A DNA stretch of 64,000 nucleotides from a virus. Every line of letters starts with the position of its first letter. Positions within the stretch are counted from its first letter, which is position 1. The position numbers were made by a program, and so were the translations under genes. The stretch lies in the IMG/VR virus record IMGVR_UViG_3300017971_000007; one strand, 5' to 3'. The notes under the pieces are model-generated. The model saw nothing but the letters and a program-made list of their open reading frames with translations. It made no database searches and was not told the DNA's origin. This document shows positions 1,765 through 17,772 of this stretch, one piece after another.

Positions 1765-2331
1765 TAAAAACACGCGCATACTCGAAACCAGTATACGAGC
1801 GTTCCGACCCCGGTTTGTCCTCTCACACTGTCATCTTCGCTTCTTAGCACGGACGGACGTGCTTAGTTGCTCAGACGACGGTGCCCGTCGAGAGGAGCGG
1901 GGCCTATAGCCCTCGCATCGGTATCCAGGAACAGAGAGAAAGCCAGAAAGGCTTTCTTGTAGCTTTAAGACACTGCGCATCTGAGCTCGCTACGTACTCG
2001 GATGAGGAGGGACTCTCCCAGAGCGTTCGAGGTTCGTCCTCTTGCTCTCGCGCCGTGCTATCCCCGGAAATACCTCTCGGCATTTCTTGTATAGCTCTAG
2101 CCTCGGCCAGGCTGCTGGATTCCTGTCCAGCTCAGTCCTACCCTGCTTGACGTCACATGTGAAAGCCTTCATGTGACGCGGCGCTTGGACAGCACCCACT
2201 CCGTGACTGCGTAATCTTCACAATTACGCGGCCTCCCGTTTCACGGGGACGGCGGTACTACTGCCTGCTTGATGAGCCCGTTTAGCAGAACGGCGGTGGC
2301 TTAGGGCTCTCCCACAGGGTCCGGCTCCGGA
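1765..2331 (-). ncRNA. candidate large structured ncRNA (~560 nt), family not recognised
   Basis: no credible ORF; more than 10 hairpins including GAAAUGCC-GAGA-GGUAUUUC (2086-2067); 5'/3' ends can pair; ends in a terminator hairpin plus U tract. Confidence 0.6.
1766..1797 (-). terminator. intrinsic terminator closing the 3636->1770 transcript
   Basis: CGUAUACU-ggtttcg-AGUAUGCG followed by cgtgTTTTT. Confidence 0.6.
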
Positions 2332-3180
2332 TTAAACCAGGGCGGCCTTGACCATCTCCAAGGCTTCGCCTGCATCCACGCCCTCGGCCAACTTCGCGAT
2401 GAAGCCGCCTTTGTGGGCGAAGATAACCCGGGAATCGTCACTCAATCGGCTGAAGTCCACCCGTGGGTGGTCATCATACCGATAGAGCGCCCAACTCTCA
2501 CCAGCTCGATCACTTTTGGTAATCGAGAAGGCGACGTCTGGGCATTCTCGGGCGCGGTATTGAGCCATCGCCTTCGAAAGTTCGAAGGTTATAGTCTCTT
2601 CCGCTATGAAGCCCTGAAGGTCGTCAACTTCAACCACCTTGGCCAGCTCCCGGATAGACGAATGCACTTTACTGTAATCGTCTATCCTGGCGAGGAGATC
2701 CATTCCGAAGTCGACTAGGAATTCCGTAACGGAATCCCCCATCTCGTCTCCGAATTCCTCTCGCGCACCGAACCATCCGATTAGGACGGTTTCGATTGGG
2801 GAGAAGATCTCCTCAGGGAGCTTTTCCATCCCCAGAGCCTTGGCCGTTACAAACGGTCCCTTGGAGTCCAAGAGAACGGTTGTTCGGTACCAGCTCTGAA
2901 GCTGGAAATGCTCCTCTAATCCAAGATGCCGAACGAATAGCGACAATGCGCATTCTGGATCGGCATCCCGAGGGAGCTGGTGGTGGTCGAAGTTTAGCCG
3001 CTCCGGTTCATGACGCCCGCCGCAGTCGAGCACAAGGACTTCAGCGTCCTCAAGCTCTTCTTGCGTGGGGTCACGCCGGAAGACCGGCACGCACCCGTAC
3101 AGGGCAAGCGCGATTGCGACGGATAGAAAGTCGTCGCGGTGCGCTGCACCGGGGTGCGTGATGATCTTTTTGATCATCAT
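2332..3180 (-). CDS. MYG1/UPF0160-family DHH phosphoesterase (putative exonuclease)
   Basis: motifs IITHPGAAHRDD, VLDCGGRHEPERLNFDHHQ and C-terminal FAHKGGFIA match the MYG1 family pattern. Confidence 0.8.
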   Translation of the reverse strand: MMIKKIITHPGAAHRDDFLSVAIALALYGCVPVFRRDPTQEELEDAEVLVLDCGGRHEPERLNFDHHQLPRDADPECALSLFVRHLGLEEHFQLQSWYRTTVLLDSKGPFVTAKALGMEKLPEEIFSPIETVLIGWFGAREEFGDEMGDSVTEFLVDFGMDLLARIDDYSKVHSSIRELAKVVEVDDLQGFIAEETITFELSKAMAQYRARECPDVAFSITKSDRAGESWALYRYDDHPRVDFSRLSDDSRVIFAHKGGFIAKLAEGVDAGEALEMVKAALV

Positions 3181-3182
3181 TT

Positions 3183-3444
3183 CGACCTAGCACCGAGACG
3201 TTGGTGCTGCGCTCGTCTATTTACCTCGACGAGTGAGGCAGTCCCAAAACCGGGGGAGAACTCCGGTATACTGAGTTGACCAGACTCAGCAGTTTACACG
3301 CGTTTCATCCCGCTGGTATTGCCAGGAATCCCCGCGATCTCCTCTTTCCCCTTTTTTGCTGCCGGGGGACATCGGCTTCTGTTCCCACGCCCTAGCTCGC
3401 GTCGGGCGCGGCGGGACTGATTACCCGCAGTGCGGCCTCAGAGC
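3183..3444 (-). ncRNA. candidate structured RNA / leader (~260 nt) upstream of the MYG1-like gene
   Basis: about 8 hairpins; long-range pairs 3419-3413 with 3245-3239 and 3440-3435 with 3239-3234; no credible ORF. Confidence 0.5.
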
Positions 3445-3636
3445 CTACTCTTCGCAAGAGCAGCTCTCCCACCGTTCTTTACACGAACGGCAGTAGAGAA
3501 CTGCTTGGAAAGAGTTGACTCCGACTGGCTCGTTCCTGACATAGCAGGTCGAGTTCCAGTCGACCACCCCGATGCCCTCGGGGTGGTTCTCGGCCAAATC
3601 CTCTCTGAATTCAGAGGGGATTTCTTTCTGTTTCAT
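3445..3636 (-). CDS. small Cys-rich hypothetical protein, 63 aa
   Basis: CRSC...CSC; starts 7 nt downstream of promoter motif copy 2. Confidence 0.6.
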   Translation of the reverse strand: MKQKEIPSEFREDLAENHPEGIGVVDWNSTCYVRNEPVGVNSFQAVLYCRSCKERWESCSCEE

Positions 3637-4564: not shown

Positions 4565-5227
4565 CTATCTACCCATCCGTATCTGTTGAGGTGGAAATGT
4601 AGGTCCCCTTTTTGATATATTTTTTAGAGCGCTGCAGAAATACGACTCTCTGCAGCGCTCGTCCGCCGTTTCCGTTACAAGCCTCCCGTACCTCTTCTCC
4701 GTTTCCATCAGCAGGAAACGGCGGATATCTACGTGCGCCCACTTGTAATCAGCCATCAGCTTCACTTTTTTAGTGAACTCCTGCCCGTCCGATGAGAACC
4801 AAGACAGTTCCACTGTCTTATTTTTTATAAAATCTTCTCCGTTCAAATTTTCCCAATTTCTGAGATAGTGTATTATGCAGGAAATTGAGTTTGATAGAAT
4901 AACAGTATTGTCGTCTGCGATGACAAACGGACCTTCACTAGGTCCATGAGACTTAATCGGTACGTATATCCTGTATCCGTCTACTCGGATATGACGTTGT
5001 TCTGCGGCATCGGTTCTGTAATAACCCACTTCCAGGAGGTCATTCTCACTAGTGGGCGGGTTCAGGTAACCCGCTCCGCTAAGTCCGGTTATTGATGTAT
5101 AGTACTGCTCTCCTCCATATAGGTTATGCATAACCTCTCGATCATGCTCATAGTGCCATACACGGTTATCTTTGAGAGATACGAAGCAGCTGGATTCTCC
5201 GCCTTTGTAGTTTACATCGATTCTCAT
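4565..5227 (-). CDS. hypothetical protein, 220 aa
   Basis: AAGGAG SD; promoter motif copy 4 upstream. Confidence 0.8.
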   Translation of the reverse strand: MRIDVNYKGGESSCFVSLKDNRVWHYEHDREVMHNLYGGEQYYTSITGLSGAGYLNPPTSENDLLEVGYYRTDAAEQRHIRVDGYRIYVPIKSHGPSEGPFVIADDNTVILSNSISCIIHYLRNWENLNGEDFIKNKTVELSWFSSDGQEFTKKVKLMADYKWAHVDIRRFLLMETEKRYGRLVTETADERCRESYFCSALKNISKRGPTFPPQQIRMGR

Positions 5228-5259
5228 TTTTTCTCCTTGTTGTTTTTTGGTTACATAAT

Positions 5260-5289
5260 TCTTATACCGATAAATCAGTATTTTTTTGG
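5260..5289 (-). promoter_or_regulatory. phage promoter motif copy 4
   Basis: ccAAAAAAATACtgatttatcgGTATAAGA. Confidence 0.75.
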
Positions 5290-5296
5290 ATGAGTT

Positions 5297-5500
5297 AAAA
5301 AATTTCGAGTGCCCTTTTCACGACAACCCTGGATCGGTTTCCCGTCACTGATTGTCAGGCACTCGTGGCTGCCGTCGGCTTGGTGGATGTCCTCCACTCC
5401 TTAGGCCCCCTTCGGGCATCTCTGCCGGGGACGACATCCGTTACCAGATGCGGTCGTCTCCAACAAGCCTGCGCTGTCCACATCCTCAAAGGGAGGACAT
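5297..5500 (-). ncRNA. candidate stand-alone sRNA (~200 nt)
   Basis: own promoter motif (5504-5533), three GNRA-capped hairpins, 8-bp 3' closing stem, then U6; no SD+ORF. Confidence 0.65.
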
Positions 5501-5503
5501 AGG

Positions 5504-5533
5504 TCTTATAACGAAAAAGTCATACTTTTTTCA
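5504..5533 (-). promoter_or_regulatory. phage promoter motif copy 5 (points into a non-coding stretch)
   Basis: tgAAAAAAGTATgactttttcgTTATAAGA. Confidence 0.65.
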
Positions 5534-5684
5534 CCTTCCCCATGATGGGATTTTCTACATACTCGAACCATTCTTTATAATCTTCGAGACATTGCTCATG
5601 AAAAAAACATTTTTTCCCTGTTAAATCCACTCTAATGACTGCATCTTTTCCGACTTCTTTTTTGCACCAATGACATTTATCCAT
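5520..5684 (-). CDS. small zinc-finger protein, 54 aa (start revised to 5684, MDKCHWC...)
   Basis: AAGGAG SD; CxxC...HxxC. Confidence 0.7.
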   Translation of the reverse strand: MDKCHWCKKEVGKDAVIRVDLTGKKCFFHEQCLEDYKEWFEYVENPIMGKVKKV

Positions 5685-5696
5685 CGTCTGCTCCTT

Positions 5697-5865
5697 AGCA
5701 AAAAAGAAGCCGTGCACTTGGGCGTTTTGGATGGCAAGCAATCATCCCTGTGATTGCAGTCTGTGCACGGCTTCTATGCGTTTATCAGCCCTGCTTTCCC
5801 AAGCAGGTAAGTTCACGCGTTCTCGTCAGCCTTTTTTGGGGAGTGCGGCTTACTTCACTCCATCT
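5697..5865 (-). ncRNA. candidate structured RNA / attenuator-like leader (~170 nt)
   Basis: 13-bp perfect stem 5705-5717/5763-5775 enclosing a 7-bp hairpin and followed by U5; CCUGCUU-GGGA-AAGCAGG hairpin at 5807-5790. Confidence 0.5.
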
Positions 5866-5883
5866 ATTTATTTTCTAAAGAAT

Positions 5884-5900
5884 GAGGAGACGGTCTCCTC
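5884..5900. terminator. hairpin, probable terminator after the gene ending at 5916
   Basis: GAGGAGAC-G-GTCTCCTC with AT-rich flanks. Confidence 0.5.
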
Positions 5901-6302: not shown

Positions 6303-9300
6303 ATGCCTATTTCAAGTACAGAAATTAATAGTTTGATGGCCGGGCAGAACCAGATGTTCGGAACCGCCGTGTCTTCATTCGGTCCGATGGATGCTCCCGG
6401 AGTTAGCGAATACAATACCGGTACCCAGGCCGCTCCATCTATGATAGCTGGAGCAGCTACCTTCGGAGCTCCGATTGCCATGGGAATTGGGGGAATGATG
6501 GGAGGACCTATTGGCGGGATGTTGGACCCAACAACAGGAGCTCTTAGGGGATTTGGTAGGGGAGTTGGATGGAGATCTGGAGCGGGTTTTGGGGCGAATA
6601 TAGGGAATGTGTTTAGAGGAGGGGTAGGAGGAATAGCTAGGGGTGTTGGAATGGGGGCACTAGGATTCCTTCCAGGAGCGGCAATATACGGGGCTGCGAA
6701 CTATGCCGCAGGTCAGATGGTGGAAGGTGCCCAATTCCAAAACCAAATGGGTTCTTTTCTGCAAAGAAACTTCAGATTTACTAACCCAGCCAGCGAAACC
6801 GGATACGGGTTCGGGACCTCTCAGAGACAGCAAATAGGAAGGATGGTTCAGGAGATGGGCATCAAGGACGTGATGTCTACTCCCCAGGAATTGATGAACA
6901 TCATGAAGGGCGGGACCCAAATGGGGTTGTTCCGTGGAATTCAAGATGCCAGACAATTCAAGAACCGATTTAAGGAAGTCAAGGACACTCTCCAAGAGAT
7001 AGCTCAGACATTTAATAGTACATTGTCTGATGCCCTTCCGTTTCTAGGACAAGCCCGCCAAATGGGATTTTGGACTCCACAAGATATTACCAAGCACGCT
7101 GGTCAGGTTAGACAGGTACAATCTGCGACCGGCATGAATGCTCAACAGGTCCAACAAACAATGGCTGTCGGTGCTCAGATGGTTAGGTCAATAGGAGGGA
7201 CCGGTCAGCAGGGTGCACAGATGATGGCCCGGGCGCACATGATGGCGGGCTCGGCCGCATTTGGGAACGTTGTATCTGAGCGAGAACTTGGGGAGGCTGG
7301 ATTTGGGATAGGCGAGCAAGGGACCATGAACTTAGGCAATATGCTTGGTGGTCTAAGCGCAAGATTTGCCAGGGGCAGAACCGGACGATGGGCATTGGCT
7401 GCCATGATGAATAGAGAAGGTACTGGTTTAGACCCTGCTGCCCTAGCCGCATTTACGTCAGGCGGTCTTAGTATCGGAAGAATAGGTTCTCTAGCCAGAA
7501 GAAATGTTGGTGGGGGAAGAGCATACAAATTTGTGCAGAATGAGGAGGAACTCCGCGGACAACTCGCCCAAGCCGGCCCACAAGCTGCTTTGGGAATTGT
7601 ACAGTCTCTAGCCGGTCAAAGACTTTGGGGGGAGGGCGATAGAGACAAGTTGGTCACAAATAGAGTTATTCGGAGATTCTTTGGAGGAACCAAGAGGCAG
7701 GCGGAGATAATCGCCAAAATGGCTAGAGAGATGCCCCGTATTATGGCCATTCAATCTGCCCGTTCAGAATCTTCGTTAGACGCTCAAGAGCGTCAACGAG
7801 AGCAGATGATGAATAACACCTATGAGGGATTTAAAAGGAAGATAGGGCAATGGTGGAGCCAGAATGTAGATGGTCCGCTCCAACAAGCTGGAGCTGAAAT
7901 CAGCAATACTGTCGGCCGGTCCTATCAAAATTTTGTGGATAAGTTGACGGGACAGAGAGGAAGAGGGCTTGGTGTAAGCCCGGCTGCTGTCCGCTCGATG
8001 GTGAGGGCGGCTCAGACTGGAAATCTTGAGTACATCCAGGAGACGATGGCTGGTCCCGGAGCCATGCAGGAATTTCTTGGAGGAGCCGGCGGAGGTGTCG
8101 GGATGGAGGCTGCAGAAAGAATGAGGAACTTAGGGTTTAGCCCGACCCAAACAGAGCAGTTATTCGGGGCCAGGGGCATGGGAATAGCCAACGCCATAGC
8201 TCCTGGAATTGGTGGACTGGCGGTTATGGGAATGAACAAAATCGCTTCTGCCTTTGGATATGGACAGGAATTCGGTGCCGGACAGATAGATGAGATGCGC
8301 GGACTAACCCAGGGCAGTCGTGGAATTGTTGGAGCTGGATCTGCTAAGGCACTAGGATTCGGAACCACTGAGGCCATGACTGAGGCTTTGGGAGGTACTG
8401 GGGCCAGGAACATACAGACGTTTTTAAGAAGCTCAGAAGTCCAGCGCATGCGCATGCGCATGGGAATGGGGACCCTAAGCGAATCAGACAGGATGAAGTA
8501 TGCCCGGGGAGTGCTTCAGAGAGTTCAAGCTGGAGCTGCGGGAGAAGCTGCTCAAAGATTGGTTTCTGGATTAAGTGAGAGACAGGCTTTAGCCAGATTG
8601 ATGGCCGCTCAAGGAAAAGTTGGTGGTGAGTTCACTGCATTAGGTGATATGGGAGCTGGTATCGGAGAAGGAAATATAAGAGAGAGGATAGCGGAAGCAC
8701 AGGAACAGGCTGACCAGGGTCTGGCAGAAGTTCTTGGAGGAGGCTCGGCTATGGGCGGACTACTAGGAAGGGCAGGGGCTGCAATCGCCGGTTTAGCGAC
8801 TGCTCCATTTGGCGGCGCAGGTCTACTAAAAAGAGCGTTTGAAGGTGGCGAGAAACCTACCGAGGCCGGAATAGAGGAACTCAGAAAAGATCCACGCGGG
8901 GCTGAGGCATTCCGCCTTTTTCACAGCGCAGAAGAAGCTGAAAAAGATGGAGACATGGATAAGGCCAGGGCTTTAAGAGAGAAAGCCAGAGGTCGGATGA
9001 GTGAATTGGCCCAGGATACAGAATCTGGGATATCCAAGTCTGCTAGGTCAGCGGCTATTCTCTTAGGAGATGCCTCAGACCCGAGATCTAAGGCAGCTGC
9101 TAAAGCATCTGCTAATATCGGTCTCGGTATAAAAACATCCAACAGTCATATGTTTGCTAAGCAATTAGCTAGAAGGCGTAGGAGGGTAGTTGAGCAATTA
9201 GGCGGGGAGGGAGGACAGGGCAGGTTTAATCTGATGCAATTGGCTGGAAAAGATTCTGAGATTGGTAAGGCTTTGTCTAGTGCTCTGCGAGTGGGGACAG

Positions 9301-9980
9301 AGAAAGACCCTATAACAGCTAAAGAACACGTCACCCAGATGACAAACTTAGCCAGATTAGCCATAGAGGACCCCGACAAGGCTGCCAGGATGGCGGCTCT
9401 TCTACAACAAGAGGGTTTGGCTGGGACTGAATTGGAATACATTCTCTCTGGGGCCGGAAGAGTATCCACTATGGCAGAGTTGGGGATATCAGCAGAGGCC
9501 GAGGAAGGACTCGCCACTGGCGGAAGAAGGGGGTTAGGAAAAGCGCGAAAAGGTCTCAAGGCAATGCTCACTGGAATGGGACTTGGAGGCATAGATCAGA
9601 AGACGATAACAGGCCTCATACGTGGAGATGAGACCGCTAAGGAAACATTCACCGAGATAATGAGGTCTAAGAGATTCGGAGACCCAGATATCAAAAAATT
9701 CATTGAGGAGGCCCGCGGGGGACTGACAGAGGCGGAGATGAGAAGTAGAGGAGCTGGATTGCTTGTTGGTGGGGGAGTAACCACTCACAGTGAGCAAGTT
9801 GCCAAGGAAGCCGGTCTTAAGAAAGGCGAGCTTCATCTAACTGGCAGAGAAGGTTCTTCTAAAGGAATGCATGAGACATTAAAAGTTCACACTGTATATT
9901 TTAGGCAGATGGTAGATGCCCTAGGAAAAATATCCAGAAACGAGAAAATCACAAAGAAGGGTCCGGAAGGAGAAGAATAA
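6303..9980 (+). CDS. probable tail tape measure protein, 1225 aa
   Basis: long Gly/Ala/Met-rich helical protein with hydrophobic Gly-rich segments, directly upstream of baseplate genes. Confidence 0.65.
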   Translation: MPISSTEINSLMAGQNQMFGTAVSSFGPMDAPGVSEYNTGTQAAPSMIAGAATFGAPIAMGIGGMMGGPIGGMLDPTTGALRGFGRGVGWRSGAGFGANIGNVFRGGVGGIARGVGMGALGFLPGAAIYGAANYAAGQMVEGAQFQNQMGSFLQRNFRFTNPASETGYGFGTSQRQQIGRMVQEMGIKDVMSTPQELMNIMKGGTQMGLFRGIQDARQFKNRFKEVKDTLQEIAQTFNSTLSDALPFLGQARQMGFWTPQDITKHAGQVRQVQSATGMNAQQVQQTMAVGAQMVRSIGGTGQQGAQMMARAHMMAGSAAFGNVVSERELGEAGFGIGEQGTMNLGNMLGGLSARFARGRTGRWALAAMMNREGTGLDPAALAAFTSGGLSIGRIGSLARRNVGGGRAYKFVQNEEELRGQLAQAGPQAALGIVQSLAGQRLWGEGDRDKLVTNRVIRRFFGGTKRQAEIIAKMAREMPRIMAIQSARSESSLDAQERQREQMMNNTYEGFKRKIGQWWSQNVDGPLQQAGAEISNTVGRSYQNFVDKLTGQRGRGLGVSPAAVRSMVRAAQTGNLEYIQETMAGPGAMQEFLGGAGGGVGMEAAERMRNLGFSPTQTEQLFGARGMGIANAIAPGIGGLAVMGMNKIASAFGYGQEFGAGQIDEMRGLTQGSRGIVGAGSAKALGFGTTEAMTEALGGTGARNIQTFLRSSEVQRMRMRMGMGTLSESDRMKYARGVLQRVQAGAAGEAAQRLVSGLSERQALARLMAAQGKVGGEFTALGDMGAGIGEGNIRERIAEAQEQADQGLAEVLGGGSAMGGLLGRAGAAIAGLATAPFGGAGLLKRAFEGGEKPTEAGIEELRKDPRGAEAFRLFHSAEEAEKDGDMDKARALREKARGRMSELAQDTESGISKSARSAAILLGDASDPRSKAAAKASANIGLGIKTSNSHMFAKQLARRRRRVVEQLGGEGGQGRFNLMQLAGKDSEIGKALSSALRVGTEKDPITAKEHVTQMTNLARLAIEDPDKAARMAALLQQEGLAGTELEYILSGAGRVSTMAELGISAEAEEGLATGGRRGLGKARKGLKAMLTGMGLGGIDQKTITGLIRGDETAKETFTEIMRSKRFGDPDIKKFIEEARGGLTEAEMRSRGAGLLVGGGVTTHSEQVAKEAGLKKGELHLTGREGSSKGMHETLKVHTVYFRQMVDALGKISRNEKITKKGPEGEE

Positions 9981-17007: not shown

Positions 17008-17772
17008 ATGAACCCATTAGACGAAGCATATGAACTTCTCGAAAAAGAGGCTATGGCGAAAAAGCCTCTTACTCCACGCGCCCAGAAAGAAATTCAACTG
17101 TGGCATGACTGGAACAATAGCGGAAGAAAGCCTGATAAATTACGCCCGCTGTTAAAATCATTAGACCCTCTCATCAAAAACAAGCAGAGGTTGTACGAAA
17201 ATAGGTTGAGGGATATTCCTCCACCTGCTATCGCGGCGGAGTTCCAGGACCAGGCCGTAAACGCTATCAAGACCTTTGACCCGAATAGAGCTCAGCTTAA
17301 TACGTGGGTGAATAGTCAACTACGTAAGGTCAACAGATTTGTTGATACATACAGGAATACGGCGAGAATTGGGGAGAAGCGTATCAATCAAATAACTCAA
17401 TTCCAGAACGCGGAATCTCAACTAAAAGATGAACTTGGTAGATCCCCAACTGCATTTGAAATATCAGATTTCGCCAAACTTCCTCTTGGAGATGTCCAGA
17501 AGCTTCAATCGGAGATAAGGAGGACATATCCTACGAGTCAATTCGGCGATGCCAGTCCAGCGGCTGTAGTTCCTTCAAAAACAGATCATATCATGCGTCT
17601 TCTTCCTTATGAACTTACGCCGGAAGAAAACGCGGTGTTTGAGTATGTCTACGGAGTGGGAGGGAAACCAAGTCTCAGCACGAACGAGATAGCAAAAAAA
17701 TTAAATGTCAGCGCTCCAAAAATCTCAAGGCTGAAGCAGAATATCGCTAAAAAGTGGGGTGAATACGAATGA
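17008..17772 (+). CDS. sigma-70 family RNA polymerase sigma factor (regions 2-4, FliA/SigF-like size)
   Basis: region 2 AIKTFDPNRAQLNTWV; region 3 ELGRSPTAFEISD; region 4 HTH LSTNEIAKKLNVSAPKISRLKQ. Confidence 0.85.
   Translation: MNPLDEAYELLEKEAMAKKPLTPRAQKEIQLWHDWNNSGRKPDKLRPLLKSLDPLIKNKQRLYENRLRDIPPPAIAAEFQDQAVNAIKTFDPNRAQLNTWVNSQLRKVNRFVDTYRNTARIGEKRINQITQFQNAESQLKDELGRSPTAFEISDFAKLPLGDVQKLQSEIRRTYPTSQFGDASPAAVVPSKTDHIMRLLPYELTPEENAVFEYVYGVGGKPSLSTNEIAKKLNVSAPKISRLKQNIAKKWGEYE

What the first reader, a model, noticed from the sequence alone, without database searches (positions are those of the whole stretch)
5297..5533. Stand-alone ~200-nt sRNA with its own promoter, three GNRA tetraloops and an alternative 5' pairing
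Seen: promoter copy 5 fires into a stretch with no SD/ORF. On the minus strand there are CAUCUG-GUAA-CGGAUG (5450-5435), GGCA-GAGA-UGCC (5426-5415) and CGG-GAAA-CCG (5344-5335), a 3' domain closed by CGAGUGCC/GGCACUCG (5365-5358/5313-5306), then U6. The first 9 nt AUGUCCUCC can form a local hairpin or pair perfectly with GGAGGACAU (5395-5387); unpaired, CCUCC is an anti-Shine-Dalgarno sequence. The next gene has its own promoter, so this is unlikely to be just a leader. Inference: a discrete early sRNA (protein decoy, antisense regulator or RNA-based anti-defence factor).
Basis: partly seen in the sequence, partly recalled or inferred. Interest (0 to 1): 0.72.

Follow-up and report, generated by a model that had tools for sequence, protein, structure and literature searches.

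The report
Conserved early small RNA of large phages
The ~200-base stretch is a real, non-coding, tightly folded RNA gene with its own promoter and terminator, and it belongs to a previously undescribed RNA family shared by at least 13 related large uncultivated phages; what the RNA does is still unknown.

Summary
The RNA folds far better than shuffles (z -4.1) and matches no Rfam family.

New here: the 1225-aa neighbour has homologues in related ~150-190 kb phages. In 12 of them the same position carries a promoter (GTGAAAAAA-N15-TATAAG), a 115-205-nt ORF-free RNA and a U-run. A covariance model built only from the relatives finds window 5321-5357 (31 bits, E~1e-5). It finds nothing in 580 kb of unrelated viral DNA.

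The shared core is:
- a terminator stem P1;
- helix P2;
- a conserved AGU/CAG internal loop;
- helix P3 with a bulged A.

14 of 20 core pairs show changes on both sides, and 87% of cells pair (26-47% when slid). In the window, P3 is capped by GAAA where relatives carry an extra hairpin plus GUAAGA.

No reading frame is conserved and the downstream gene is not conserved. CCUCC and the long-range 5' pairing are window-specific.

Verdict: a genuine stand-alone early sRNA and a new family. It most likely acts through its folded core, probably by binding a protein, and not as an anti-Shine-Dalgarno antisense RNA. Function is inferred only.

The parts
5526..5534 (-). upstream promoter element GTGAAAAAA (-35-like position)
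   Evidence: Shared by the seven intergenic promoter copies of the window. Also lies upstream of the homologous RNA in the relatives.
5504..5512 (-). promoter -10-like element GTTATAAGA (TATAAG 5510-5505)
   Evidence: KKTATAAGA occurs 11 times against 2.6 expected.
5478..5502 (-). predicted transcript start (about 5500-5497, inferred from spacing) and local 5' hairpin CUAUGUCCUC-CCUUU-GAGGAUGUGG
   Evidence: MFE and centroid structures. A 5' hairpin starting at R-U-G-U-Y-C is predicted at or near the 5' end in most of the 12 family members tested, often capped by GNRA.
5430..5458 (-). hairpin GACGA-ccg-CAUCUG-GUAA-CGGAUG-UCGUC in the window-specific 5' domain
   Evidence: Read directly and present in the MFE and centroid. 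No covariation is available, because the only other copies are identical.
5415..5426 (-). hairpin GGCA-GAGA-UGCC in the window-specific 5' domain
   Evidence: Read directly. It is not in the MFE structure and is unverified.
5387..5395 (-). GGAGGACAU, a perfect complement of the 5' end AUGUCCUCC (5500-5492)
   Evidence: Reached by 19 of 2000 shuffles. Not conserved in the relatives.
5358..5365 (-). P1 5' strand CGAGUGCC (closing helix of the conserved core, also the terminator stem)
   Evidence: Pairs with 5313-5306. The P1 strands assigned by eye pair at 7-12 positions (at most one mismatch) in all 12 members tested, with different sequences.
5321..5357 (-). conserved core: P2 GACAAUC (5356-5350) / GGUUGUC (5328-5322); internal loop AGU (5349-5347) / CAG (5331-5329); P3 GACGG (5346-5342) / CCG-a-UC (5337-5332, bulged A5334); GAAA cap (5341-5338)
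   Evidence: A covariance model built without the window scores 31 bits, E 9e-6 / 3.4e-7. The rebuilt model scores 34 bits.
5297..5313 (-). P1 3' strand GGCACUCG (5313-5306), AAA, and U6 (5302-5297): intrinsic-terminator-like 3' end
   Evidence: A U-run follows P1 in the 12 members tabulated and in L117.
5260..5268 (-). separate promoter copy GGTATAAGA for the next gene (220-aa ORF, 5227-4565)
   Evidence: The two other strains of the same phage have A for the first G.

Best explanation
Window 5504-5297 (minus strand) is a stand-alone gene for a stable, structured, non-coding RNA of about 200 nt. It is made from one of the phage's recurrent early-type promoters and ends at its own intrinsic terminator.

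It belongs to an undescribed RNA family found at the same genomic position in at least 13 related large phages. The position is beside the divergent start of the structural operon.

The family's invariant part lies inside the terminator hairpin:
- a closing stem P1 followed by a U-run;
- helix P2;
- a 3x3 internal loop, AGU opposite CAG;
- helix P3 with a bulged A;
- an A-rich cap on P3. In the window this is a plain GAAA tetraloop. In most relatives it is an extra hairpin P4 followed by GUAAGA.

The 5' end folds into a hairpin and is followed by a 5' domain that varies from phage to phage.

The conserved nucleotides are unpaired positions held in a covarying scaffold. They are not a long single-stranded seed. 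From this I infer that the RNA acts in trans through its three-dimensional fold. The most likely mode is binding, and sequestering or scaffolding, a host or phage protein early in infection.

Shown: the gene-like anatomy, the family, the fold of the core, and the absence of coding.
Inferred: transcription, stability, and the protein-binding mode of action.
For: Anatomy and thermodynamic stability.

Promoter motif: enriched (11 against 2.6 expected) with a shared extended consensus. The same promoter type sits upstream of every homologue.

Homologues: reached through the neighbouring 1225-aa protein (27-55% identity) and through DNA patterns.

Membership of the window:
- Model R1, built from 11 relatives only, finds the window copy as its only significant window hit (31 bits, E 9e-6).
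- It aligns P2, AGU/CAG and P3 exactly, with P4 replaced by 4 nt.
- It gives 0 hits at E<=1 in 580 kb of unrelated viral loci.

Covariation:
- On the sequence-only MAFFT alignment, 83% of cells pair, against 74% when shuffled and 27-51% when slid.
- On the 13-member model alignment, 87% pair, 14 of 20 pairs change on both sides, and P3 is 98% paired with 4 of 5 pairs compensatory.
- The L117 copy has P4 fully switched, to GUCGC/GCGAC.
- P1 pairs in all 12 members tested, with different sequences, and is followed by a U-run.

Non-coding: the reading frame from the first AUG/GUG falls in all three phases relative to the conserved core. It stops after 4 codons in the window and 13 in L010.

Not a leader: the downstream genes are unrelated, and the window's 220-aa ORF has no homologue at all. 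The window, L044 and L036 have a new TATAAG promoter directly after the terminator.

Copy number: one copy in a complete 178-kb genome and one in a 149-kb record.

Known families: no Rfam family, tRNA or tmRNA.
Against: - No transcript data.
- The function has no direct evidence. No partner protein is identified, and no gene co-occurs consistently with the RNA.
- The window's 5' domain (5478-5366) cannot be tested, because the only other copies are 100% identical.
- The window lacks the P4/GUAAGA module, which is the most sequence-conserved part in most relatives. Either that module is dispensable or the window RNA has a reduced or altered function.
- In seven relatives no TATAAG promoter lies between the terminator and the next SD-like site, which leaves room for a cis role there.
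- Folding z-scores of six relatives are modest, -0.9 to -2.1.
- One relative with 51% protein identity (L118) lacks the RNA.
Confidence: 0.55

Rival explanations
1. A cis-acting early regulatory RNA. The structured transcript and its built-in terminator would form an attenuator, or a nut/put-like antitermination site, that decides whether RNA polymerase reads on into the downstream early region. The short RNA would be only the by-product of termination.
For: - It lies directly behind an early promoter and ends in a terminator. The 5' hairpins capped by GNRA loops resemble boxB-type elements (resemblance from memory).
- In L004, L007, L008, L023, L025, L026, L029 and L031 no TATAAG promoter lies between the U-run and the next hairpin + SD-like site.
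Against: - The downstream sequence is not conserved between phages, and in several it runs into convergent + strand genes before the next minus-strand operon, which has its own TATAAG promoter.
- The window, L044 and L036 restart with a promoter at once.
- The conserved structure is the terminator hairpin itself. I saw no obvious antiterminator pairing by eye, but I did not search for one systematically.
- The window's alternative 5' pairing does not touch P1.
Confidence: 0.15
2. A trans-acting base-pairing sRNA. Its 5' CCUCC (anti-Shine-Dalgarno), exposed or hidden by the alternative 5' pairing, would block ribosome binding sites of host or phage mRNAs.
For: - CCUCC at 5495-5491 and a 9-nt alternative partner exist, at a chance level of about 1%.
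- Genes of this phage use AAGGAG/GGAGG sites.
- A 3' terminator hairpin plus U-run is the usual 3' end of chaperone-dependent sRNAs (general knowledge).
Against: - CCUCC is absent from the other 12 family members. Their 5' ends read RUGUYC followed by varied hairpins.
- The long-range pairing is not conserved.
- The only stretches conserved family-wide are 3-5 nt long, too short for a seed.
- CCUCC would pair with any SD and gives no specificity.
Confidence: 0.1
3. A guide or scaffold RNA or a ribozyme, for example a viral sgRNA or omega-RNA-like decoy for an RNA-guided nuclease, or a self-cleaving RNA.
For: - The size, the several GNRA-capped helices and the stand-alone promoter/terminator resemble phage-encoded single-guide RNAs (bioRxiv 10.64898/2026.06.01.729453).
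- The window's 12-bp bulged GUAA hairpin superficially resembles a fused repeat:anti-repeat (by eye).
Against: - That hairpin lies in the non-conserved 5' domain, and short family members lack it.
- The 5' end is conserved and folded, not a variable guide.
- No ribozyme or other Rfam model matches, even at E<=10.
- No nuclease gene is consistently adjacent.
Confidence: 0.05
4. Not an RNA product with a function of its own. It would be an elaborate bidirectional or insulating terminator with a GC-rich spacer, or the 3' UTR of the upstream 54-aa gene, conserved only as a transcription stop.
For: - The conserved core coincides with the terminator hairpin.
- Transcripts of the upstream 54-aa gene, which has no promoter copy of its own, must also run into it.
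Against: - A dedicated, conserved promoter sits immediately upstream in all 13 phages and would transcribe only this RNA.
- Invariant unpaired nucleotides (AGU/CAG, the bulged A, GUAAGA) and a 40-75-nt insert are not needed for termination.
- In the relatives the upstream gene has its own separate terminator.
Confidence: 0.07

Closest known systems
Stand-alone phage-encoded structured decoy RNAs, e.g. viral single-guide RNAs that sequester Cas9 (bioRxiv 10.64898/2026.06.01.729453)
   Same: A phage-encoded small RNA with several helices. The proposed action is binding a protein through its fold.
   Different: No repeat:anti-repeat duplex and no variable guide at the 5' end. No link to CRISPR loci. 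The partner is unknown. The resemblance is one of kind only.
phi29-type packaging RNA (pRNA, Rfam RF00044)
   Same: A phage RNA of about 120-170 nt made from an early promoter. Its secondary structure is conserved with little sequence conservation, and it lies beside the structural/packaging genes.
   Different: No match to the Rfam model. The phage type is unrelated (150-190 kb genomes). The core lies inside an intrinsic terminator. There is no evidence of a packaging role.
lambda nut (boxB) and HK022 put antitermination RNAs
   Same: Structured RNA directly behind early promoters, followed by a terminator, with hairpins carrying GNRA-type loops.
   Different: Those elements act in cis and are not themselves the terminator. 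Here the conserved fold is the terminator hairpin, and in the window the next gene has its own promoter.
Transcription-terminating (OFF) riboswitches
   Same: Promoter, conserved aptamer-like fold with invariant unpaired nucleotides, intrinsic terminator.
   Different: There is no conserved downstream gene. I saw no alternative antiterminator pairing by eye, without a systematic search. No Rfam riboswitch matches.
Orphan structured RNA motifs found by comparative genomics in phages and metagenomes (Rfam motifs of unknown function)
   Same: Defined by covariation and genomic context only. Restricted to phages. Function unknown.
   Different: It matches none of the 4227 Rfam 15 models.

Membership tests
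Any Rfam 15 family (4227 models, including ribozymes, riboswitches, pRNA, 6S, SRP, tmRNA, known phage motifs) | Score at or above the family's gathering threshold | tested here: not met
   0 hits in the whole window. On 5200-5620 at E<=10, only Ms_IGR-7 at 16.8 bits (threshold 45) and SAM-III at 13.5 bits. In four relatives only a tRNA elsewhere, and nothing at the RNA.
tRNA / tmRNA | Cloverleaf or tmRNA detected by ARAGORN | tested here: not met
   0 genes in the window.
New phage RNA family defined here (models R1 and R3) | P2, AGU/CAG internal loop and P3 with a bulged A, scored by a covariance model that was built without the window | tested here: met
   Window 5321-5357(-): 31 bits, E 9e-6 and 3.4e-7 with filters off. 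Zero hits in 580 kb of control DNA.
New phage RNA family defined here (models R1 and R3) | P4 hairpin plus GUAAGA junction inside P3 | tested here: not met
   The window has GAAA in place of 27 model positions. A model of the P4 module finds no copy elsewhere in the RNA. L117 shows that the sequence of P4 is itself variable.
New phage RNA family defined here (models R1 and R3) | Same genomic context: GTGAAAAAA-N-TATAAG promoter, closing stem P1 + U-run, position next to the divergent start of the 1225-aa gene | tested here: met
Independent sRNA gene | A discrete transcript with defined 5' and 3' ends | not testable with these tools
Promoter and terminator are inferred from sequence and from their conservation.
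Terminator-type riboswitch or leader | A conserved regulated gene downstream | tested here: not met
   The downstream sequences are unrelated. The window's 220-aa ORF has no homologue.
Anti-Shine-Dalgarno / base-pairing sRNA | A conserved accessible seed (CCUCC or a longer one) | tested here: not met
   CCUCC occurs only in the window. The 5' ends of relatives are RUGUYC + hairpin. The conserved unpaired runs are 3-5 nt.
Cas9-type single-guide RNA | A variable unstructured 5' guide followed by a conserved repeat:anti-repeat duplex | tested here: not met
   The 5' end is conserved and predicted to be folded. The candidate duplex (5458-5430) is absent from short members.
Small protein gene (leaderless ORF from the AUG at 5500) | A reading frame conserved across homologues | tested here: not met
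   The frame relative to the conserved core is 0, 1 or 2 in different members. It stops after 4 codons in the window.

The most novel reading that the evidence does not exclude
The conserved core (AGU/CAG loop, bulged A, A-rich cap) held in a terminator hairpin would be a high-affinity mimic or decoy. One of the first transcripts of infection would titrate a host defence, RNA-processing or translation factor. The variable 5' domains would tune this to different hosts, and the 5' hairpin/long-range pairing would act as a conformational switch. That would make it a new class of RNA-based anti-host factor, shared by a whole clade of large uncultivated phages.
Probability: 0.15. Interest if true: 0.8.

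Novelty: new variant of a known kind. Interest (0 to 1): 0.6.

Why it matters
Structured RNAs made by lytic phages are few, and most lack any assigned role. This one is transcribed from a dedicated early-type promoter and is kept at one genomic position across phages whose neighbouring protein is only about 42-57% identical (L117 is 57%). Its fold is supported by compensatory changes, and it matches nothing in Rfam.

That gives a concrete, testable object: a 60-nt conserved core, natural minimal and extended variants, and 13 sequences. It can be used to ask what early phage RNAs do, whether decoy, scaffold or regulator, in a clade of large phages that also carry their own sigma factor and RNA polymerase genes.

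If it only marks a transcription stop, it is a curiosity. If it binds a host factor, it adds an RNA-based take-over or counter-defence mechanism.

Tried and rejected
- **blastn of the region against 50,697 phage records:** no match.
- **Neighbour proteins as handles:**
  - The 220-aa ORF has no homologue other than itself.
  - The 54-aa Zn-ribbon ORF gave one weak, unrelated IMG/VR locus.
  - The 456-aa virion protein gave none in IMG/VR.
- **Other strains of the same phage (L002, L003):** the RNA is 100% identical, so they give no covariation.
- **Paralogues inside the window:** none.
- **nhmmer/blastn of the window RNA against the relatives' loci:** nothing significant. Homology became visible only through position, promoter and structure.
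- **Motif patterns in public collections:**
  - In IMG/VR and in genomes of 185,579 species, most matches were chance hits in coding DNA.
  - There was no genuine copy in any bacterial or archaeal genome.
  - A promoter+5'-end pattern in IMG/VR gave 63 loci, none with the core.
- **A 'relocated P4 module'.** By eye, the window's CCCC[GGCA-GAGA-UGCC]CGAAGGGG-GCCUAAGGA (5430-5398) resembles the relatives' P4+GUAAGA. The P4 model R2 does not detect it, so I rejected it as unsupported.
- **The MAFFT register.** MAFFT aligned the window's CCUGACAAUCAG to P4. I rejected this in favour of the structural register chosen independently by R1.
- **A family-wide 5'-end/GGACGUA pairing:**
  - It forms in 10 of 11 relatives (61 of 66 cells), but with no covariation beyond conservation.
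  - By reading, it is absent in L117.
  - I keep it as a lead only.
- **Resemblances recalled from memory** (sarcin-ricin loop, SRP helix 8, 11-nt GAAA receptor CCUAAG, L11-binding region, K-turn): none fits the conserved positions on inspection, and none is supported by Rfam.
- **Weak R3 hit in G006 (E 0.024):** it lies in apparent coding DNA with no promoter or terminator, so I judged it spurious.
- **The simple terminator scan:** it does not list P1, because its loop limit is 8 nt.

Full report
**1.

Reading the minus strand of 5000-5900 shows every element at the coordinates given:
- the GUAA hairpin at 5450-5435, extended by GACGA/UCGUC to 5458-5430;
- the GAGA hairpin at 5426-5415;
- the GAAA hairpin at 5344-5335;
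- the closing helix CGAGUGCC/GGCACUCG at 5365-5358 / 5313-5306, followed by AAA-U6 (5302-5297);
- the 5' AUGUCCUCC (5500-5492). It can pair locally (hairpin 5502-5478) or perfectly with GGAGGACAU (5395-5387).

The 206-nt RNA folds at -85.9 kcal/mol against -68.6 +/- 4.3 for shuffles (z -4.07). The 3' domain alone gives z -4.51. A 9-nt perfect partner for the first 14 nt arises in about 1% of shuffles. No ORF with a ribosome-binding site lies in the stretch.

**2. The promoter**

KKTATAAGA occurs 11 times in the window against 2.6 expected. The seven intergenic minus-strand copies share a longer consensus: an A-run about 15 nt upstream, then kGTATAAGA, then often ATG three bases later. The copy in front of the RNA, GTGAAAAAA (5534-5526) ... 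GTTATAAGA (5512-5504), fits well. It overlaps the stop codon of the upstream 54-aa ORF. The next gene (220 aa, 5227-4565) has its own copy at 5268-5260.

**3. Known families**

Rfam 15 gives nothing at gathering thresholds in the window. At E<=10 on 5200-5620 it gives only two meaningless weak hits. ARAGORN finds no tRNA or tmRNA. blastn against phage records finds nothing.

**4. Finding relatives**

The window is part of a ~175-kb uncultivated phage (contigs of 174 kb and 36 kb). Two other strains carry an identical RNA. The flanking small proteins are orphans.

The divergently transcribed 1225-aa protein (6303-9980), however, has 38 homologues at 27-55% identity on contigs of up to 190 kb. 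I fetched the DNA around nine of them. Each closer relative shows the same layout:
- a small gene orthologous in position to the window's 104-aa ORF;
- a terminator whose loop holds GTGAAAAAA;
- TATAAG;
- a GC-rich, ORF-free stretch of 120-205 nt;
- a U-run.

A motif shared by these stretches retrieved three more members from metagenome contigs. It retrieved none from genomes of 185,579 bacterial and archaeal species. A profile of the protein's N-terminus retrieved a 13th member from a complete 178-kb IMG/VR genome with terminal repeats.

**5. Is the window's RNA a member?**

Sequence search alone does not link it to the relatives. I built covariance model R1 from the central region of the 11 relatives only, with a structure I assigned by hand.
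- Over 186 kb, R1 finds each relative at 44-87 bits.
- Its only significant window hit is 5321-5357(-), at 31 bits and E 9e-6. With filters off the E-value is 3.4e-7.
- The model's own alignment pairs UGACAAUC with GGUUGUCG (P2). It leaves AGU and CAG unpaired and pairs GACGG with CCG-a-UC (P3). It replaces 27 model positions by the four bases GAAA.
- In 580 kb of unrelated viral loci the model finds nothing at E<=1.

Flank identity to the L026 member is 10 of 10 for UCAGUGACGG and 10 of 10 for CCGAUCCAGG.

**6. The fold of the core**

*Sequence-only MAFFT alignment of the relatives:*
- 83% of cells pair, against 74% in shuffles and 27-51% when partners are slid;
- 9 pairs change on both sides.

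*Model-guided alignment of all 13 members. It leans towards the model, so it should be read together:*
- 87% of cells pair, and 14 of 20 pairs change on both sides;
- the covariation score is 0.435, against at most 0.093 when slid;
- P3 is 98% paired, with forms such as GCCGG/CCGaGC, GACGG/CCGaUC, ACCGG/CCGaGU, GCCUG/CAGaGC, GGUGG/CCAaCC and AGUGG/CCAaCU.

L117 has P4 as GUCGC/GCGAC instead of CCCUG/CAGGG.

The closing stem P1 pairs at 7-12 positions in all 12 members tested. The sequences differ, and a U-run always follows. The P1 strands in that table were assigned by eye.

Independent single-sequence folds of L044, L010, L025 and L026 reproduce the same nested architecture.

The invariant letters are mostly unpaired: UC-AGY before P3, the bulged A, CAG-G after P3, and (G)UAAGA before the 3' strand of P3.

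**7. What differs in the window**

The window's P3 is capped by a GAAA tetraloop. Eleven relatives insert J-P4-GUAAGA there, and L117 inserts a covaried P4 plus CAAGA. The window copy is therefore a natural minimal core.

It also has the largest 5' domain of the family, about 135 nt holding the GUAA and GAGA hairpins. This domain has no counterpart that can be aligned and no variation to test. Its fold remains a prediction.

I looked for a displaced copy of the P4 module in that domain, and the P4 model does not support one.

**8.

- CCUCC is unique to the window. The other 5' ends read RUGUYC and then mostly form hairpins, six of them capped by GNRA.
- The 9-nt long-range pairing is not conserved.
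- In 10 of 11 relatives the 5' UAUGUCC is complementary to the conserved GGACGUA at the P4/junction boundary (61 of 66 cells). Both strands are conserved, there is no covariation beyond that, and by reading L117 lacks it. A 5'-end switch is therefore a lead, not a finding.

**9. Coding and leader readings**

From the first AUG/GUG, several GC-rich members stay open for 40-63 codons. The conserved core falls in all three phases in different members, and the window stops after four codons. It is not a protein gene.

Downstream sequences are unrelated between phages:
- In the window, L044 and L036 a new TATAAG promoter follows at once.
- In others the region runs into convergent + strand genes before the next minus-strand operon, which has its own promoter.

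A dedicated leader for a conserved gene is thus unlikely. A cis role in termination control cannot be excluded where no promoter follows.

**10. Distribution**

- There is one copy in each of the two whole records searched: a complete 178-kb genome and a record estimated 85% complete. It is not at a genome end (51.6 kb of 178 kb).
- It is absent from one relative at 51% protein identity (L118).
- More distant relatives (L027, L119, L120, L121) carry a different promoter-to-terminator RNA of about 100-115 nt at the same place.

**11. Mechanism**

*Shown:* a gene-like unit, a conserved and covarying fold, and no coding.

*Inferred:*
- It is transcribed early from its own promoter and ends at P1.
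- With a 5' hairpin and a 3' terminator hairpin, it should be stable.
- Because conservation sits in unpaired nucleotides displayed by a covarying scaffold, it most likely works as a folded RNA that binds a protein, as a decoy or a scaffold.

I put about 0.85 on 'genuine structured ncRNA gene of a new family'. I put about 0.4-0.5 on 'acts by binding a protein in trans'. The stated confidence of 0.55 is for the whole statement.

**12. Novelty and score**

A new, covariation-supported RNA family restricted to a clade of large uncultivated phages is a solid but not startling result. Many orphan RNA motifs exist, and the function is open. Interest is 0.6. It would be higher if a host target is found.

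As far as its index shows, the scan had not seen this RNA on other DNA. The same stretch was noted once more from an overlapping window.

Noticed in passing
window 1765-2331 and 3183-3460 (minus strand), flanking ORF 2332-3180: Two GC-rich (55-61%) ORF-free blocks flank a 282-aa ORF whose N-terminus matches Pfam MYG1_exonuc (E 5.9e-9). No Rfam family matches either block. The whole unit is much more GC-rich than its surroundings.
   Followed up: partly
window 5697-5865 (minus strand): A structured stretch ending in a long stem + U5 lies just before the SD of the 54-aa Zn-ribbon ORF (5684-5520). That ORF has no promoter copy of its own. A separate hairpin terminator sits at 5900-5884.
   Followed up: no
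window minus strand 1113, 3644, 3944, 5260, 5504, 6248, 21110: A recurrent promoter with an extended consensus, (G/C)AAAAA-N14-16-kGTATAAGA-nnn-ATG. In five of the seven copies an ATG lies at a fixed distance, hinting at a conserved start region or at leaderless starts. A sigma-70-family protein is encoded at 17008-17772 (Pfam r3/r4).
   Followed up: partly
L004 5247-5236(-), L023 1586-1575(-), L029 6797-6808(+), L031 1145-1156(+) and following ~80 nt: A second conserved non-coding motif, AGCGCCGCCCGC-loop-GCGGGUACC ... GGCGCU, lies 40-110 nt downstream of the sRNA in four distinct relatives. It is absent from the window.
   Followed up: partly
L007 ~5010-4985, L008 ~5180-5160, L023 ~1682-1662, L029 ~6738-6758, L031 ~1046-1066: A conserved GC hairpin, GGCCCCGUGUCCAGCGGGGCC, without a U-run follows the sRNA. 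An SD-like site and a short non-conserved ORF come right after it.
   Followed up: no
L044 1480-400 (minus strand): The phage closest to the window's carries a row of at least four further tiny units downstream of the sRNA. Each has a GGTATAAGA promoter, about 100-150 nt with a strong GC hairpin, and a U-run + AGC. At least the first two hold no obvious ORF.
   Followed up: no
L027 2440-2325(-), L119 ~3690-3575(-), L120 ~3665-3550(-), L121 ~3895-3775(-): More distant relatives carry a different ~100-115-nt promoter-to-terminator RNA directly beside the start of the 1225-aa homologue. L027, L119 and L121 share words such as CACCC..CCGG..GAGU(G/A)AG..GGACC. It may be a second RNA family in the same position.
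   Followed up: partly
L004 4169-4797(+), L007 4141-4884(+), L008 4237-4861(+), L010 4423-5119(+): Inside the minus-strand early region the relatives carry two conserved + strand (convergent) small genes: a ~70-aa protein and a 57-88-aa CxxC...CxxC zinc-finger protein. The window lacks them and instead has an apparently unrelated 54-aa Zn-ribbon ORF on the minus strand.
   Followed up: no
L010 4696-4766(+): A tRNA gene (Rfam tRNA, 59.6 bits) lies in the early region of one relative. There is none in the window.
   Followed up: no
window 6303-9980: The 1225-aa Gly/Met/Ala-rich protein, the first + strand gene after the divergent early/structural junction, is a good marker for this phage clade. 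It has 38 homologues on contigs of 4-190 kb and no Pfam domain on record in the precomputed annotations.
   Followed up: partly
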